Part shown: positions 30,001 through 36,000 of the stretch, in pieces
Position numbering within the stretch: the first letter of the stretch is position 1
Layout: the number at the start of each line of letters is the position of its first letter
Origin: Leucoraja ocellata
Lineage: Eukaryota
Assembly (NCBI GenBank): GCA_036785375.1
Contig: JAWMAR010000071.1
Location: forward strand, 8,742,001-8,806,000
Reading direction: 5' to 3'
DNA: 64,000 nucleotides
Position numbers: made by a program

Positions 30001-33000
30001 TTGACCAAAAAAAGGCATAAAAAGGCATGTATTTCCACCACCAAAATATGGTTAAAAAGGATAATATAAGGGTATACTACATTAAATGACCAAAGTTGCC
30101 TGGTTGCACATAATTACTAGATTTTTTTCAAATTATCCGGTGTTAAACTATGCCGTCTGCCAGACAGAATACGCTTCAGTTGTGAGAAACTTTCTACCTC
30201 AGCTGAGGTCAATGGTGCATACCCGAAACAAGCTACAGACTCTAATTCATGTCAATATCTTGTGCATTACAACTACCTTTGAGAAATGTTGTTTAGACCG
30301 AAAGGTCTGAATGACAATAAAGGGTAATTCAATTCAATTCAAAATTCAATTTAGCTATGGTTTTGTATTTCTTCAAGATCTTTGTTAGCTAAAATCTCTC
30401 TCTCACATTTTCCTTGTATGTCTTTACCTACATCGCCAGGAATTTTACAAATATCGTCAGTCACTTTGTTGAAAACCTGCAAGTTATTCACTAATGTTTT
30501 GCCACGTTTCTCCAGAGCAGTGATAGCTTGTGGGAAGTTTGCAAAATTGGAAGCAATAAACACAAGATCGCAGTGGAGGGACTTTTTCTGCATGATTTCA
30601 CTGACGATCCTGACTGCAGCAGATTCTTCTTCTTCAAAACAGTTGACAATTTATTTTATCTTTTCAAAATTTGCAGCATAGTGGAGTACAGCAGAGAGCC
30701 ATGTACCTCACCTAGTCAAAACGGGCTGAGGAGGTAGCGGAATCTCGGGTGCCATTTCCTTGAACAACTGCACATGTGACGGTGCTTTGAGGAAGATTTT
30801 CTTGACATTGGAAACCATGCAATCGACATTTCGAAAGAAGCTACGTATGTGATTGGCAATTCTATGAAGTCCTTGACCTAAGCATGTCAAATGCAACATT
30901 TTGGGGAATAAAACTTTGAGCACGAGCAGCTTTTTTCATGTACAGAGCCGCATCAGTCACAAACAGACGAACATTCTTGTGTTTTATACCTTCTGGCCAA
31001 AGTACAGCAAGTGAAGATGTAAACAACTGAGCAATAGTTGAGCTGTTTGACTTTTCCAATACCTCCAATGTCAACAAATACTCCTTTGATGGTTGACCTG
31101 CCTCCAGTGTATCGATGACCACATTGGCAACATATCTCCCCACAGCATCGGTTGTCTCGTTTATTGAGATCCATATTTTGTTGCATGCAACTTCATTTCT
31201 AATTTTCTGCACAACAATGTTGAAGTTGCTGTCAACATAATTTTTCTGTAATGATGACTCGCTTGGCATATGTTGCTCTATGTATTTCTCTAAAAAACCT
31301 CTGAGAGATTTGTTTTCCAATTTCCACAGTGGAATTCCAGCATCAATGAATGCCTTGCACAGATCACTCGAAAACTCAGATTTGCGACTGGAGCCAGCAG
31401 TAAATGTAGTGAGGAGACAAGCTTGGGTATTTTGTTTGGGTAGTCTACAACCCAGCGGTATCAACATTAACCTCTAATTTTAGATATCCCTTGTCTTCTC
31501 CCTCCTCCCCCTTCCATGCTCACCTTCTAGTCCTACTGTCTACACCTCTTCCTTTCTTTAGCCTGCCCCCCCCCCCCCCCAGATCAGTCTGAAGAACGGC
31601 CTCGACCCAAAACGTCACTTATTACTTCTCTCCATAGATGCTGCCTCACCCGGTGAGTTTCTCCAGCATTTTCTGTCGACCTTCGATTTTTCCCGCATCT
31701 GCAGTTCTTTCTTATATAGATCGTGGAGAAGACTGAATCAGCAGGCAGCGGCACAAACGAATGAACGACCGACGGTGGCGCTTCCAGTTTCACTCCGGTG
31801 TGGAAATCTTTTTATAAGTTATACTAAGTTAACACATTAATAATAGCATTAATATTAACGTGCTAACATAGAAAACGTCACAGTACAACGGGAGAAAATA
31901 GCACGATCTTTTCGCAAAAAGGCAAAAAAAAAAAGCTAATTTAGGCACTCGATCGGGAAAAGGGCATTATCTTGATGAAATTATCAAAAAAGGCATAAAA
32001 AGGCACATGGCATTTATGGCAAAACCCTGGCTCTGATTACCTTCAGCTACTAAGGTTCTAAATTTAACTCCCTTCTCAACCTCTTTTCCTCTTTAAAAAT
32101 GATTTCTATCTACCTGTCGATGTATCTATATATCATTAAAACTGATCTTGTGCTCTTCCGGATTGAGTGGTTCTTCTATATGCGCAAAAACGGTATACAA
32201 TAGCGCTACGATTTTACGCCAGCTTACTCACCATTCTCCTATGCTGTGAGTGCAACAAGTTTTGTTCTGATCGATGGTATATTCTAAAAATAATATTATT
32301 AAGGTTTAAAAATCGTAAAGACCGCGCATGCGCAGTTTGCTGTCAGTCGCCGCTATGCAGATTGGTCTCCTGTCAGTCAGGAAGGGGCGTCGCTGCATCT
32401 GCGGTCAATCGGCTGGCGGTCGCCATGGTGAAGGAGTGGCGCCGCCGCCAGAGGAGTTGCGGCCGCGCAGTACCTGGTGGGGAGGGTAGTGCCGCGGGCA
32501 GAGCCCGGGGACTGGAGCTAAGGACGAGCCAGAGGACTGGGCCCAAACTGGAGCCAAGGACAAGCCCGGGGACTGGGCCTGGGATGGAGCCACGGGCCGA
32601 GCCCGGAGACTGGGCCTGGGCTTGAACCAAAGACGGGGTCAGGGACGATCCTGGAGATGAAGTCACGGCCTGGACTAGAGCCCAGGCTGCAGCTGATCTG
32701 AGGGCTGGAGTCGTGCCCAAGCCCAGGGCCTGGGTCAAGGTGTACCAGCGCCTCGGGGGCCTCCTGGCCCCTGTCATCCTGCAGCACAGCTTCCACTTCC
32801 TGCTCTGCGGACAGCTCTGGCTTGGCTGCCCGCCACGCTCACCCCGCCCCAGACATAGCGAGCCTGGCTCCATCGAGGCCCAGGTCCACGAGTGCTTCGG
32901 CCGCCTACAGCCAGGCCGAGTATGAGAATCGGGTCGAGTTCCAGGCCCTGGCGCTGCTCTACGACCTGGGTAGGTGCTGGGGCAGGGAATGGGAGTGAGG

Positions 33001-36000
33001 GGAGGAGGATGTGGGAAAGGGGAAGGAGGGAGATGGGGAGGTATATGGAGATGGGGGCGGGGTTGCATCGCCGAGCCCAGCTGTTTACCCGCTGGCAAGG
33101 AATACCACGGGTCCCGGGACAGGCAGCGCTGCAGCGGCTCCTTCCCGCAGGCGCGGACACCGGGAGTGGCCCTAACGCAGCGCACCATTACACAGAGAGA
33201 GGGAGCGAGAGGGGGCGCCGCAGCCCGGCCCACAGCACAGTGGGGGGAGGGAGAGAAGACGGGGGGGGGTGGGGGGGGGGGTGGGGGAGGGAGAGAGAGA
33301 GGGGAGAGAGGGATGAGAGGGATGGGGGAGAGAGAGATGAGGGGGGAGAAAGGGATGAGTGGAACGGGGAAGAGAGAGGGAGGGGTGAAAGAGGGAGTGG
33401 CGTAGAGGGGTGGTGGAGTGCAAGGGGGTAGGGGGGGTTAGAAGGGTCTGGGGTGATGGGCAAGGTGGGATAGAGGGGGGGGGGAGTAGAGGGAGAGAGG
33501 GGTGGATTTGATGGGAGGGGGGGATAGGCGTGAGTGGTGGAATATTGCCTTGGGGGAATGGGTGAGTGGTGGAATATTGCATTGGGGAACGGGTTGCGTT
33601 GGGCGACCAGGCCTCCCGTGTGACAGGGACCCCCACTTAATCGAGTATTTCTTTACATAACTTGGTGTAAAATTTAGTTTGACAATGCTCCCATGAAGCT
33701 TCTCCTTCTGAGTTCAGACTGCTATATAACTACAATCTATTGTTGCAATTGCATCATGGATAATTGTGTGAGAACACTTTGTGGCGAGACCCGAGAAAAG
33801 CACTTTAAATCACAAGCAACATCATGACTAGAAATGTGGTAATTTACTTATACCATCCTCAATCTGTCTGAAATCAACTGGCTTCATTTCTATCTAAGGT
33901 AGACAAAAATGCTGGAGAAACTCAGTGGGTGAGGCAGCATCTATGGAGCGAAGGAATAGGTGACGTCTGAAGAAGGGTCTGAAGAAGGGTGTCGACCCGA
34001 AACGTCATCAATACCGTAGCTCCATAGATGCTGCCTCACCCGCTGAGTTTCTCCAGCATTTTTGTCTACATTCGATTTTTCCAGCATCTGCACTTCTTGC
34101 TAAATCATTTCCTGCTACCTAATCACACGCAATCTTCTGCAATGGTATATTCTGCCGCATTCATTCTGAATTTCTGATCTCAGTACCCCTCATCTCCAAA
34201 GTTATTTCATATTGATATAATTCATCTTAGTGGCATCTGAAAGCATATCAGAATCAATGTACCACATCCCAAGGTCTACTGCATCATCAGCTTATTAGAC
34301 CCTCTACCATCCTGAATTTACTCAATGCTTGCCCGACATCTAATCGGCACATTAAAAAAAAATAATCACTTGCCTAAATGCAGAGTAACCCTTGCCACAA
34401 ATTTCAATTCCTAATCATTAATTTTATCTACTTTGCTGGCAATTAGCACAGGCGAAATTGATCCTTTCACTTCAGTACCAAGTGATTTATTGTGCATTTC
34501 CTCTAGTTTTGACCTGCATTTCATAGGTTTCTCTCTCTCCAACTGTCTTCATTAATCTATCAACCAGATGTCTTCATCCTTAGCTTGTCTTCATGGTCAT
34601 TCTGCCCCACCCTCAGAGATATTCCCTACATTTCATCCTTCTTTCCCAGTCATCTCTGCAACTTAAAATTAATTTGATGTCTCTCTTACCCAGTTCGGAC
34701 CTGAATTTTTAATTTTTAATATTAACCACATATGCTACCCAGCTTGTTTATTATTTCCAGCATTCTGTTTTTATTCAATCCTTTCACAATCTCTGTTTTA
34801 TATTTAATCTAGAAATAAACCTTGGACTGCTGTTATCTACCTCAACCTACTTTCATGTTCCTCATAAACCCCAATTCTAAAACCATACTACCTCACCCCA
34901 GTGCTTCAGCTCATGTGTAGTTGAAACCCCCATTTATGCCTTTATAATGAAAGATAATTCCAATAATCTAATCAAACTTTCAATTTCTATCGTCAATAAA
35001 AACAGGTGAGCTGGAAATCCTACCATCAATATCCTAAAAACATCCAGTCCAGCTCAACCTTTAGCACTGTGCATGATGACTTGCAACAACAGTTTTAAAA
35101 AGACATACTCATTTTCAAATCCCTCTAAAACCTTACTCTGTATCCAATCTTCTTCAGCCCTACAAACCTTTGAGATCTTACGGGTCTCCAATTAGTGGTT
35201 GTGCATTCTGATGTCTTCTTTGCTGAACTTCTCCTCATCCCATCGGTTTCCCTTGCTCATTAAAACTAAGATTTAGAATCATAAAAACGTTACTGCAATG
35301 AAGGAGTTCATCAAACCCAAGCCATTTCAGGTCAAGACGCTGCTTTTCATTCAAATTTTAGCATCTACAGTCTCTTGCATCTCCCAAGCCATTCTCGACT
35401 TTGCTCACAACTCTAATTTTTGTTTCTCTCCTTTCAAGTCTCAATGTAATCCCTTGCCCCATGACTTGATAAATACTAGATCATTATTACTTGTTGCATT
35501 GCTTCTTTTTCCAGTTGCCTTCAATTTATGAATAGTGTTTCTCAATTCATATGCCAACAGCAAACCTTTCTTCATATACTTTGTCGCCAACAGTCTGTCC
35601 TTTCCTTCTTTGTGTTTAAATAGTATGTGTTAAATGTATGTTTGTAGTGTTCTTTAGCTTGTTTTATGTGGGGCGGGTTGGGGAAACGTTTTCTAATTTC
35701 TTACCTCGATGGAGATGAGATTTTTTTCCCGTACAGTATCTCCGTCCGCATTGCAGCCTAATATCAAGGAGTTGGTGGCCTTTGCTGGAGACAGACGTTT
35801 GAGAGTTCCACCGCGGGTGCCTGCAGCCTTACTATCGCGGAACTCGTCATCCCTTTACCAGGGATCGACCTTGGAGATTCAACCGTGGATGCCTGCAGAC
35901 TTTACGTTACGGAGCCCGTGGTCTCTGGTCAGAGACCGACATCAGGAACTCCAAGCCAAGGGAGTTTCAGCCGCCCCGATGCAGGAGCTTCGATCGCCCC

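What the first reader, a model, noticed from the sequence alone, without database searches (positions are those of the whole stretch)
32125..33645. Helitron that captured a SAC3D1-like exon (with its splice donor) inside a WDR36 intron
Seen: an element with Helitron-type ends (A|TC 5'; 3' block shared with copies that end hairpin+CTAG|T) encloses a GC-rich insert. Its translations give, in order, MVKE, APPPEELRP, QYLVG, WVKVY, EAQVHECFGRL and EFQALALLYDLG, followed by G|GTAGG and purine-rich intron-like sequence. Knowledge: these motifs recall SAC3D1 (AVKEYSRPAAG..PPPSQLRPP..RYL..QAQVQEGFGSL..FQGLFLLYNLG), and Helitron gene capture is documented in maize and vespertilionid bats. Inference: the retained donor implies DNA-level capture, suggesting an exon-shuffling Helitron system in a cartilaginous fish. 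A second unassigned GC-rich segment (~33050-33200) may be another capture.
Basis: partly seen in the sequence, partly recalled or inferred. Interest (0 to 1): 0.8.

Follow-up and report, generated by a model that had tools for sequence, protein, structure and literature searches.

The report
Helitron-like transposon carrying SAC3D1 gene fragment
A 1.5 kb rolling-circle-type (Helitron-like) transposon copy in an intron of a skate or ray WDR36 gene carries a decayed copy of the start of the host's SAC3D1-like gene, an ordinary though neat example of transposon gene capture.

Summary
Window 32125-33640 (+) is one of four same-strand copies of a repeat family. The copies share a ~185 bp 5' block starting TCTATA and a 3' block, and their interiors are unrelated.

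The GC-rich interior is homologous to residues ~16-284 of a 444 aa protein named 'SAC3 domain-containing protein 1-like [Rhinoraja longicauda]'. The match scores E 1.5e-21 in a 5.8-billion-protein database and E 6e-27 by tblastn. Similarity stops at G|GTAGGT (32969/32970), and residues 285-444 match nowhere in the window. That fits DNA-level acquisition of a first coding exon with its donor site.

The copy is a pseudo-exon with at least four frame changes, stops and deletions. It lies antisense in the ~15 kb WDR36 intron between exons 36827-36955 and 21702-21794. The host is a batoid.

Not shown:
- Strict Helitron membership. The siblings end CTTAG|T, not CTAG|T, and this copy ends CTTAA|T with its hairpin lost. 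No Rep/helicase gene is in the window.
- That the cargo ever moved with the element.
- Any exon shuffling.
- A second capture at 33050-33200.

Verdict: new member of a known kind, low-to-moderate interest.

The parts
32125..32312 (+). 5' terminal block (LTS-like) of the Helitron-like element. It starts TCTATA directly after a flanking A.
   Evidence: The nhmmer profile of the four 5' blocks covers 32125-32312 (E 1.6e-48, a training row). blastn to copy A gives 64% over 178 nt (E 4e-15), to copy B 63% over 189 nt, and to copy D 74% over 101 nt.
32323..32334 (.). Palindromic CGCGCATGCGCA motif at the start of the cargo, promoter-like. The label NRF1-type site is recalled, not tested.
   Evidence: It is the only match to YGCGCAYGCGCR in 64 kb, and 0 of 100 shuffles gave any match. 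It lies 11 nt after the end of the 5' block.
32355..32969 (+). SAC3D1-like pseudo-exon, matching about residues 16-284 of the 444 aa skate protein P0001. An ATG at 32355 may be the original start. The reading path runs through frames 1, 3, 2, 1, 2, with stops and deletions.
   Evidence: E 1.5e-21. (54/92 identities with a 16-residue gap). (21/26). (tblastn E 6e-27, 8e-08 and 3e-06). Frames were read.
32508..32635 (+). 36 bp tandem repeat (3.5 copies) inside the pseudo-exon. It corresponds to the tandem 18-residue repeat region of the skate protein.
   Evidence: TRF. P0001 carries repeated units at about residues 80-180. tblastn aligns this stretch to them.
32970..32975 (+). Splice-donor-like GTAGGT directly after the last matched codon. 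An alternative donor is AG|GTGCTG at 32973/32974.
   Evidence: Sequence. The protein similarity ends at 32971, and P0001 residues 285-444 match nowhere in the window.
32976..33190 (+). Unassigned GC-rich sequence (GC 0.66, CpG o/e 0.66).
   Evidence: No other copy in the window. No Pfam hit in any frame. No Rfam hit above gathering score. Composition. The origin is inferred.
33191..33530 (+). G/GA-rich low-complexity stretch with short tandem repeats of 9-42 bp periods.
   Evidence: TRF. GC skew up to +0.92.
33531..33640 (+). 3' terminal block (RTS-like) with an internal 32 bp duplication (33530-33594). It ends CACTTAA, followed by T. The right arm of the hairpin is missing.
   Evidence: nhmmer hits at 33567-33639 (E 1.6e-12) and 33535-33557 (E 0.0085). 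blastn to copy A gives 88% and to copy D 93%. The GGTGGAATATTGCRTTGGGG motif has 4 matches in the window against 0.02 expected. Fold.
13189..14186 (+). Sibling copy A. It runs from A|TCTATA to GGACCC-AAC-GGGTCC + ACTTAG|T. The interior holds 41 bp and 30 bp minisatellites.
43495..44141 (+). Sibling copy B (TCTATAG ... CACTTAG|T). It directly follows a 5'-truncated partial copy (about 42880-43494) that ends in a 36 bp minisatellite.
55376..56025 (+). Sibling copy D. It is 5'-truncated behind a (CA)n run, has a different interior, and ends CACTTTA.
36827..36955 (-). WDR36 exon (residues 598-640 of P0002) bounding the host intron on the upstream side of the gene.
   Evidence: tblastn. Pfam WDR36/Utp21 second beta-propeller, E 1.4e-15.
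21702..21794 (-). WDR36 exon (residues 634-664 of P0002) bounding the host intron on the downstream side of the gene.
   Evidence: tblastn, 100% over 31 residues.

Best explanation
Window 32125-33640 is an old, non-autonomous, Helitron-like (rolling-circle type) transposon copy. It sits antisense in a ~15 kb intron of the WDR36 gene of a batoid, probably a skate.

Between the family's 5' block and 3' block it carries about 870 bp of host DNA taken from the 5' end of a SAC3D1-like gene. That DNA comprises a few tens of bases of core promoter or 5' UTR, the first coding exon (up to the residue matching 284 of the 444 aa skate protein), the exon's GT donor, and about 220 bp of what followed it. 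A G/GA-rich low-complexity stretch comes next.

The DNA was acquired as genomic DNA, not through an mRNA. The cargo lies internal, between family-type ends, so acquisition by filler-DNA or template-switch repair inside an element fits better than read-through of the 3' end. Joint mobilisation from one element's 5' end to another element's 3' end also fits.

Since then the copy has decayed. It has frame changes, stops, three deletions including 16-17 conserved residues of the SAC3 domain, and a lost 3' hairpin. It most likely has no function now.

Shown: the homology, where it ends, the family ends, and the intronic position. Inferred: the Helitron mechanism, the mode of capture, and that the cargo travelled with the element.
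For: Cargo identity:
- ORF 32626-32925 hits 'SAC3 domain-containing protein 1-like [Rhinoraja longicauda]' (P0001) at E 1.5e-21, 1 hit among 472 candidates.
- BLASTP gives 54/92 and 21/26 identities.
- tblastn gives E 6e-27 at this locus only.
- P0001 is a true SAC3_GANP protein (Pfam E 4.7e-69).
- The cargo includes the lineage-specific tandem-repeat region of P0001. The next relative, P0036, lacks that region. The donor was therefore a skate-type gene.

DNA-level origin:
- Similarity ends at 32971, on G|GTAGGT, and residues 285-444 are absent from the window.
- There is no poly(A).
- A unique GCGCATGCGC palindrome sits about 20 nt upstream of an ATG.
- Weak support for an exon junction here: 13 of the 150 listed SAC3-family representatives have their best stretch starting at query residues 280-289, and 3 end at 285-287.

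Element:
- 3 of 3 copies with an intact 5' end start at the same TCTATA register, with unrelated upstream flanks.
- The 3' ends stop in the same register, CACTTAG / CACTTAG / CACTTAA.
- Copies A and C are flanked A|...|T.
- No terminal inverted repeats or target duplication can be read.
- A 6 bp hairpin lies 6 nt from the end of copy A.
- Interiors are unrelated between subfamilies.
- These are the hallmarks listed in passages of PMC4778049 and PMC6544945.

Mode of capture and bias:
- PMC6544945 states that gene fragments trapped inside Helitrons exclude end bypass and fit filler DNA.
- In Xenopus, 17 of 19 captured coding fragments come from gene 5' ends (PMC12001565, section 18), as here.

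Host:
- 16 WDR36 exons lie on the minus strand.
- The best named hits are Hemitrygon 92%, Pristis 90% and Narcine 87%.
Against: - The strict 3' CTRR motif is not met. The last four bases are TTAG (A, B), TTAA (C) and TTTA (D).
- A, B and C all continue with TC after the inferred end, so the boundary is uncertain by up to 2 nt.
- The hairpin is intact only in copy A. Its energy is not beyond shuffles (z -0.72; 44 of 200 shuffles fold as well). It is absent from this copy (z +0.44).
- Copy B is preceded by T, not A.
- No Rep/helicase domain occurs among the 278 ORFs of at least 62 aa scanned. 25 low-complexity ORFs of 303 were dropped before the scan.
- No empty site was available.
- No second copy with the cargo was seen. 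The 'near'-length protein search gave 0 of 12 candidates, and the 'longer' search gave only the gene-like protein. These are weak proxies.
- The cargo's own single-frame ORFs give no Pfam SAC3_GANP hit (0 of 7).
- The cargo's repeat period (36 bp) differs from the 54 nt implied by the 18-residue unit of P0001.
- The exon boundary of the donor gene was not verified on genomic DNA.
Confidence: 0.62

Rival explanations
1. In-situ filler. A Helitron-like copy was already resident in the WDR36 intron, and the SAC3D1-like DNA was pasted into it later during break repair. The cargo was never mobilised, so this is not transposon-mediated gene movement.
For: No other copy with this cargo was found by the only proxies available. 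The 3' block of this copy is rearranged, with a 32 bp duplication and a lost hairpin arm, as expected at a repaired break. The three sibling copies in the window carry no gene fragment.
Against: Filler insertion inside an element is itself the proposed capture route (PMC6544945 passages), so this differs only in whether a later transposition occurred. The 5' block (63-74% to siblings) and the cargo (about 80% amino-acid identity in its best block) are both old, which fits a common history.
Confidence: 0.22
2. Not a Helitron. The shared end blocks belong to some other non-autonomous repeat or composite of unknown class, and the TC/A|T features are coincidental.
For: CTRR is not met. Hairpin energy is not significant. 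No Rep/helicase is in the window. There are only four copies, 63-82% alike. A and B carry TATA-like and AATAAA-like motifs and minisatellites.
Against: Exact shared 5' register TCTATA in 3 of 3 copies. Shared 3' register. No terminal inverted repeats, no target duplication, no poly(A) tail and no LTR-type TG...CA ends. Heterogeneous interiors and a head-to-tail junction at 43494/43495 are typical of rolling-circle elements.
Confidence: 0.12
3. Processed retrocopy, chance similarity, or an assembly chimera joining unrelated GC-rich DNA.
For: The GC-rich block contrasts sharply with the AT-rich intron. Read-level support could not be checked.
Against: Retrocopy: the homology stops at an exon-end-like GT, downstream residues 285-444 are absent, and there is no poly(A). 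Chance: E 1.5e-21 and 6e-27. Chimera: the window has no N, the block is bracketed by family ends in the correct order and orientation, and the cargo is of skate type, like the host.
Confidence: 0.04

Closest known systems
Heli1Xen1 non-autonomous Helitrons of Xenopus laevis with captured coding fragments (PMC12001565; abstract, passages and section 18 read)
   Same: A vertebrate host. The cargo is a coding fragment held between family 5' and 3' terminal sequences. The cargo comes from the 5' end of the donor gene (17 of 19 there).
   Different: There the ends match an autonomous partner, the family is young, and 13 fragments occur in multiple copies. Here no autonomous partner is seen, the copy is old and decayed, only one cargo copy is known, and the 3' end is CTTAG/CTTAA.
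Helibat / Helraiser Helitrons of vespertilionid bats (PMC4778049; abstract and passages read)
   Same: 5'-TC start, A|T target, no target duplication, no inverted repeats, a palindrome near the 3' end, and capture of host gene pieces at DNA level.
   Different: Helibat ends CTAG, with a 19 bp palindrome 11 nt from the end, and captures mainly by read-through of the 3' end. Here the end is CTTAG, a 6 bp stem lies 6 nt from the end in one sibling, and the cargo is internal, which argues against simple read-through.
Insect Hel1 Helitrons with stepwise internal acquisition (PMC6544945; abstract and passages read)
   Same: Short non-autonomous elements, mostly intronic, with extra host sequence trapped inside the element. 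The authors explain this by the filler-DNA model.
   Different: There the source loci and microhomology junctions were identified. Here the donor locus could not be examined.
SAC3D1 (SAC3/GANP family, Pfam PF03399)
   Same: The cargo matches residues ~16-284 of a skate SAC3D1-like protein, including part of the SAC3_GANP domain and the lineage-specific repeat.
   Different: It is not a gene. It needs at least four frame changes, contains stops, and has lost 16-17 conserved domain residues plus two shorter stretches. The C-terminal 160 residues are absent. Its own ORFs give no Pfam hit.

Membership tests
Helitron (canonical rolling-circle transposon), non-autonomous copy | 5'-TC terminus | tested here: met
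   3 of 3 copies with a 5' end (A 13189, B 43495, C 32125) begin TCTATA in the same register. Copy D is truncated.
Helitron (canonical rolling-circle transposon), non-autonomous copy | 3'-CTRR terminus | tested here: not met
   The last four bases are TTAG (A, B), TTAA (C) and TTTA (D). The ends read CTTAG/CTTAA, one T more than CTAG/CTAA. The boundary is uncertain by up to 2 nt because no empty site was available.
Helitron (canonical rolling-circle transposon), non-autonomous copy | Short palindrome (hairpin) just upstream of the 3' end | tested here: inconclusive
   Copy A has GGACCC-AAC-GGGTCC 6 nt from the end. Copy B has two mismatches to the pattern. Copy C lacks the right arm and copy D the left arm. 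Energies are not beyond shuffles (z -0.72, -1.03, +0.44 and -0.18).
Helitron (canonical rolling-circle transposon), non-autonomous copy | No terminal inverted repeats, no target-site duplication, insertion between A and T | tested here: met
   Read directly from the sequence. A is flanked ...cca|TC...TTAG|tcc and C is flanked ...gta|TC...TTAA|tcg. Neither has a repeated flank or complementary ends. B is preceded by T inside a composite.
Helitron (canonical rolling-circle transposon), non-autonomous copy | Autonomous partner encoding Rep/helicase with the same ends | not testable with these tools
   None among 278 ORFs of at least 62 aa in the window. No host-genome DNA collection was available.
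Helitron (canonical rolling-circle transposon), non-autonomous copy | Multi-copy family with conserved ends and heterogeneous interiors | tested here: met
   Four end-pairs plus one partial 5' block in 64 kb. C shares only its ends with A, B and D.
Helitron gene capture (mobilised host fragment) | Host gene fragment lying between the element's own 5' and 3' ends | tested here: met
   The SAC3D1-like stretch 32355-32969 lies between 32125-32312 and 33531-33640, all on the same strand.
Helitron gene capture (mobilised host fragment) | Donor locus identified, cargo collinear with genomic DNA (exon plus intron) | not testable with these tools
   Only a protein of a related skate was available. The end of similarity at a GT site is consistent with this feature.
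Helitron gene capture (mobilised host fragment) | Same cargo with the same junctions at two or more loci | not testable with these tools
SAC3D1 / SAC3_GANP (origin of the cargo) | Significant sequence similarity to a SAC3D1 protein | tested here: met
   E 1.5e-21 and E 6e-27. The hit itself carries PF03399 at E 4.7e-69.
SAC3D1 / SAC3_GANP (origin of the cargo) | Intact reading frame and domain, that is a functional gene or exon | tested here: not met
   Frames run 1, 3, 2, 1, 2, with stops at 32519-21 and 32623-25 and a 16-residue gap in the domain. There were 0 of 7 Pfam SAC3 hits.
Processed retrocopy | Continuity across exon junctions, poly(A) tail, target duplication | tested here: not met
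   Homology stops at residue 284 of 444 on a GT site, and there is no poly(A).

The most novel reading that the evidence does not exclude
The family is, or was, a working promoter-and-first-exon shuffler in skates. The cargo keeps CpG-island composition (GC 0.67, CpG o/e 0.62 over 871 bp), a perfect GCGCATGCGC palindrome and a GT donor. It could therefore act as an intragenic antisense promoter and first exon that splices into downstream sequence, with sister copies carrying this or other 5' gene ends elsewhere in the genome. That would be the first Helitron capture system described in cartilaginous fishes.
Probability: 0.07. Interest if true: 0.6.

Novelty: new member of a known kind. Interest (0 to 1): 0.3.

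Why it matters
Helitron-type capture of gene 5' ends is well documented in maize, bats, insects and Xenopus. This locus adds a clear example from a cartilaginous fish.

My library searches found only a passing mention of Helitron presence in such fishes, in the whale shark (PMC8455134, one passage). They found no paper pairing Helitron with SAC3D1 and no description of capture in sharks, skates or rays.

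For annotation, the locus is a warning. The GC-rich island in this WDR36 intron is a dead gene fragment, not a SAC3D1 paralogue or a WDR36 exon.

If the family proves multi-copy with varied cargo, it would give a handle on DNA-level exon and promoter shuffling in an early-branching vertebrate lineage.

Tried and rejected
- Pfam on 7 single-frame ORFs of the insert gave no SAC3 hit and only one spurious match at E 1.4.
- PDB sequence search with two ORFs gave 0 hits and 2 spurious hits (E 0.17 and 0.2).
I used stop-free ORFs instead.
- The 'near'-length homologue search for cargo-derived ORFs gave 0 of 12 candidates.
- The listing of cluster members for the skate protein's cluster was not available.
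- Rfam over 31500-34200 gave 5 weak matches, all far below gathering scores. The two best lie outside the element, in an inverted SINE-like pair and at 31818-31876.
- I tested whether 33040-33200 holds a bypassed old 3' end. Local alignment to the four 3' blocks was reached by 11 to 178 of 300 shuffles, so I rejected the idea.
- I tested whether the start of the cargo is shared with copy D. The match 32322-32352 to 55894-55924 has E 0.43, so I rejected it.
- A frameshift-aware alignment scored 315, with 98 identities in 180 matched columns. It wandered into the protein's repeats at its 5' end, so I rely on the BLAST segments.
- A bacterial promoter/terminator scan is irrelevant to a vertebrate, and I disregard it.
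- A recalled maize 5'-end consensus was not found in the paper library and is not used as evidence.
- Each frame piece of the pseudo-exon and each WDR36 exon ORF was searched on its own.

Full report
**What is there.** The window is AT-rich (GC 0.41, CpG o/e 0.43) and has no N. Between about 32300 and 33600 the GC content jumps to 0.60-0.725.

The GC-rich block is bracketed by two AT-richer blocks that recur elsewhere in the window. blastn of the flanks found partners at 13250-13294 and 55376-55429 for the left block, and at 14132-14171 and 55990-56018 for the right block. Reading those places and aligning them gives four same-strand elements:
- A: 13189-14186
- B: 43495-44141
- C: 32125-33640 (the finding)
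- D: about 55376-56025, 5'-truncated behind a CA microsatellite

A 5'-truncated partial copy at about 42880-43494 abuts B head-to-tail. Profiles built from the four 5' blocks and the four 3' blocks recover these four pairs (training rows), the partial 5' block (E 0.014), and a duplicated piece of the 3' block inside C (E 0.0085). Nothing else in the window reached E <= 0.01.

**The ends.** A, B and C start in exactly the same register with TCTATA, and their upstream flanks are unrelated. A and C are preceded by A. B is preceded by T, but inside a composite.

The 3' ends stop in one register: CACTTAG|T (A, B), CACTTAA|T (C) and CACTTTA (D). I read no terminal inverted repeats and no target-site duplication.

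Copy A has a 6 bp palindrome (GGACCC-AAC-GGGTCC) 6 nt from its end. B has a degenerate version of it. C keeps only the left arm and D only the right arm. Folding energies of these 40-mers are not distinguishable from shuffles.

Set against the definition quoted in PMC4778049 and PMC6544945 (passages):
- 5'-TC terminus: fits.
- A|T target, no target duplication, no inverted repeats: fits.
- 3' palindrome: fits partly.
- 3'-CTRR terminus: does not fit strictly, because the ends are CTTAG/CTTAA.

A, B and C all continue with TC after the inferred end, so the 3' boundary is uncertain by up to two bases. No Rep/helicase domain occurs among the 278 ORFs of at least 62 aa that I scanned with Pfam. 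25 low-complexity ORFs of 303 were dropped before the scan. I therefore call the family Helitron-like. It looks and presumably works like a non-autonomous Helitron, but strict membership is not established.

**The cargo.** On their own the single-frame ORFs gave nothing in Pfam (0 of 7) or against PDB sequences.

The ORF 32626-32925, searched alone against longer proteins, found a single hit among 472 candidates. It is a 444 aa protein named 'SAC3 domain-containing protein 1-like [Rhinoraja longicauda]' (P0001), at E 1.5e-21 for a database of 5.77e9 sequences.
- BLASTP gives 54/92 identities, with a 16-residue gap in the window's copy.
- The neighbouring frame (32702-32998) gives 21/26 identities up to ...LALLYDLG.
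- tblastn of P0001 against the whole window gives E 6e-27, 8e-08 and 3e-06 for three frames of this one locus, and only noise elsewhere.
- P0001 is a bona fide SAC3_GANP protein (Pfam E 4.7e-69).

Reading together, the homologous path runs as follows:
- Frame 1: ...RLAVAMVKEWRR
- Frame 3: APPPEELRP
- Frame 2: QYLVGRVVPRAE..., then a stop at 32519-21
- A 36 bp tandem repeat at 32508-32635, with a frame-1 stop at 32623-25
- Frame 1 again: AQAAADLRAGVVPKPRAW...QRLGG...EAQVHECFGRL
- Frame 2: YSQAEYENRVEFQALALLYDLG

That makes at least four frame changes. There are three deletions relative to P0001: about 7 residues, about 8 residues, and 16-17 residues that include conserved SAC3-domain positions.

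The repeat region matters for the origin. P0001 carries tandem 18-residue units at the same place, whereas the next closest relative in the 1.84-billion-protein library (P0036, 74% identical) lacks them. The donor was therefore a skate-type gene, not foreign DNA.

I searched each frame piece separately. I built and searched no joined or frame-corrected model.

**Where the homology ends.** The last matched codon ends at 32971, and the sequence there reads CTGG|GTAGGT (32969/32970). A second possible donor, AG|GTGCTG, lies four bases on. Either would fit the protein's ...LG-S...

Residues 285-444 of P0001 match nowhere in the window, and there is no poly(A). This is what a genomic copy of a first coding exon with its donor would look like, and it is not what a processed retrocopy would look like.

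I could not verify the donor gene's intron position. The only hint is indirect. Among the 150 listed SAC3-family representatives, 13 have their best matched stretch beginning at query residues 280-289 and 3 end at 285-287. Fragmentary gene models broken at an exon junction would give that pattern.

Upstream, the cargo begins within about 10 nt of the end of the 5' block with CGCGCATGCGCA. This is the only match to YGCGCAYGCGCR in the window, and 0 of 100 shuffles gave any. The label NRF1-type site is recalled, not tested. An ATG follows at 32355. Weak similarity to the protein starts at its residue 16, at 32371.

The cargo thus looks like a sliver of core promoter or 5' UTR plus the first coding exon.

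**After the donor.** 32976-33190 is GC-rich (0.66) with CpG o/e 0.66. It has no copy elsewhere in the window, no Pfam hit in any frame and no Rfam hit of note.

The simplest reading is that it is the intron sequence that followed the exon in the donor gene. That is an inference.

I tested whether it hides a bypassed old 3' end of the element. The best local alignments were reached by 11 to 178 of 300 shuffles, so I rejected the idea. 33191-33530 is G/GA-rich low complexity.

**Host gene and organism.** Pfam on stop-free ORFs placed WDR36/Utp21 propeller and Utp21-domain pieces along the minus strand, in descending order.

One exon ORF (61293-61646, searched alone) found 34 proteins among 93 candidates. 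The named ones are WD repeat-containing protein 36 or its Utp21-domain equivalents. The closest named hits are batoids: Hemitrygon akajei 92%, Pristis pectinata 90% and Narcine bancroftii 87%. An unnamed record (P0002) is 98% identical.

tblastn with P0002 and P0003 maps 16 exons from 61538 down to 3830. The element lies in the intron between 36827-36955 (residues 598-640) and 21702-21794 (residues 634-664), with no residues missing between them. The element is antisense to WDR36, so its GT site cannot serve WDR36 splicing.

The window is a batoid, probably a skate. It is not human.

**Mechanism.** The cargo sits between family-type 5' and 3' blocks rather than beyond an old 3' end. Simple read-through (end bypass, the route shown for Helraiser) therefore fits poorly. 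Internal acquisition by filler DNA or template switching fits better, as argued for insect Hel1 elements. Mobilisation from one element's 5' end to another element's 3' end also fits.

The 5'-end bias of the cargo matches Xenopus Heli1Xen1, where 17 of 19 captured coding fragments come from gene 5' ends.

Age:
- C's 5' block is only 63-64% identical to those of A and B, and 74% to D's.
- The cargo's best block is about 80% identical to the skate protein.
- The 3' hairpin is gone.

This copy is old and immobile.

**What remains open.** No host-genome DNA collection was available here. The donor locus, the copy number of the family, other copies with the same cargo, empty sites and an autonomous partner all stayed unchecked.

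The protein-level proxies for further cargo copies were negative but weak. In-situ insertion of the SAC3D1 fragment into a resident element therefore cannot be excluded.

**Literature.**
- Searches for Helitron with skate/elasmobranch, with 'gene capture' and cartilaginous, with shark/skate/chimaera and with captured fragments in fish returned no description of Helitron capture in cartilaginous fishes.
- One passage of the whale shark genome paper lists Helitron among the superfamilies present.
- A 2017 review discusses elephant shark TEs without Helitrons (passages).
- No paper pairs Helitron with SAC3D1.

**Verdict.** It over-reaches on 'CTAG', on 'exon-shuffling system' and on the second capture. 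This is a new member of a known kind, of low-to-moderate interest.

Noticed in passing
window 3830-61538 (-): 16 exons of WDR36 (residues ~239-892 of an 892 aa relative) span almost the whole window on the minus strand. All four Helitron-like copies lie in its introns, and all are antisense to it.
   Followed up: partly
window 13506-14092 and 43135-43449: The sibling Helitron-like copies carry internal minisatellites: a 41 bp unit x6 and a 30 bp unit x8 in A, and a 36 bp unit x7 in the partial copy before B. A, B and the partial copy share a GGACTATAAAACC TATA-like motif.
   Followed up: no
window 43494/43495: Head-to-tail junction. A 5'-truncated copy that lacks a 3' end runs straight into the TCTATAG start of copy B. 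This may be nesting or a tandem product of rolling-circle transposition.
   Followed up: no
window 40354-41109 and 59791-60540: Two ~750 bp segments are 96-97% complementary (inverted), 19 kb apart. They overlap reverse-transcriptase ORFs (RVT_1 at 40870-41550, E 1.6e-23), so they are two young copies of one retroelement in opposite orientation in neighbouring WDR36 introns.
   Followed up: no
window 6014-6696 (-), 9443-10582 (-), 25510-26134 (+), 48533-48778 (-), 50150-50614 (-), 30865-31473 (-): Fragments of other mobile elements: RT-RNaseH and gag (LTR type), RVT_1, an endonuclease of LINE type, a DDE_3 transposase piece, and a weak DUF659 hit below Pfam's cut-off.
   Followed up: no
window 20276-21420: A second GC-rich intronic block (GC 0.62, CpG o/e 0.62) made of ~316 bp direct repeats and near-perfect palindromes (for example 21297-21357 / 21359-21419, 95%). 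It lies just downstream of the WDR36 exon at 21702-21794. No Pfam hit.
   Followed up: no
window 33892-34076: An inverted pair of SINE-like units (75 nt arms, 89% complementary, 35 nt apart) lies 250 bp after the element. It accounts for the weak plant-miRNA-family Rfam matches (28 bits against a gathering score of 85), which I take as chance.
   Followed up: partly
window 19441-47290 (six places): An ~88 nt SINE-like repeat containing GATGCTGCCTGACCCGCTGAGTT occurs six times on the + strand, with further copies inverted. It is a typical interspersed repeat of this genome.
   Followed up: no
window 14187-14188, 44142-44143, 33641-33642: Copies A, B and C are all followed by TC. Either the target preference extends beyond A|T, or the true 3' boundary lies up to 2 nt further out.
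   Followed up: no
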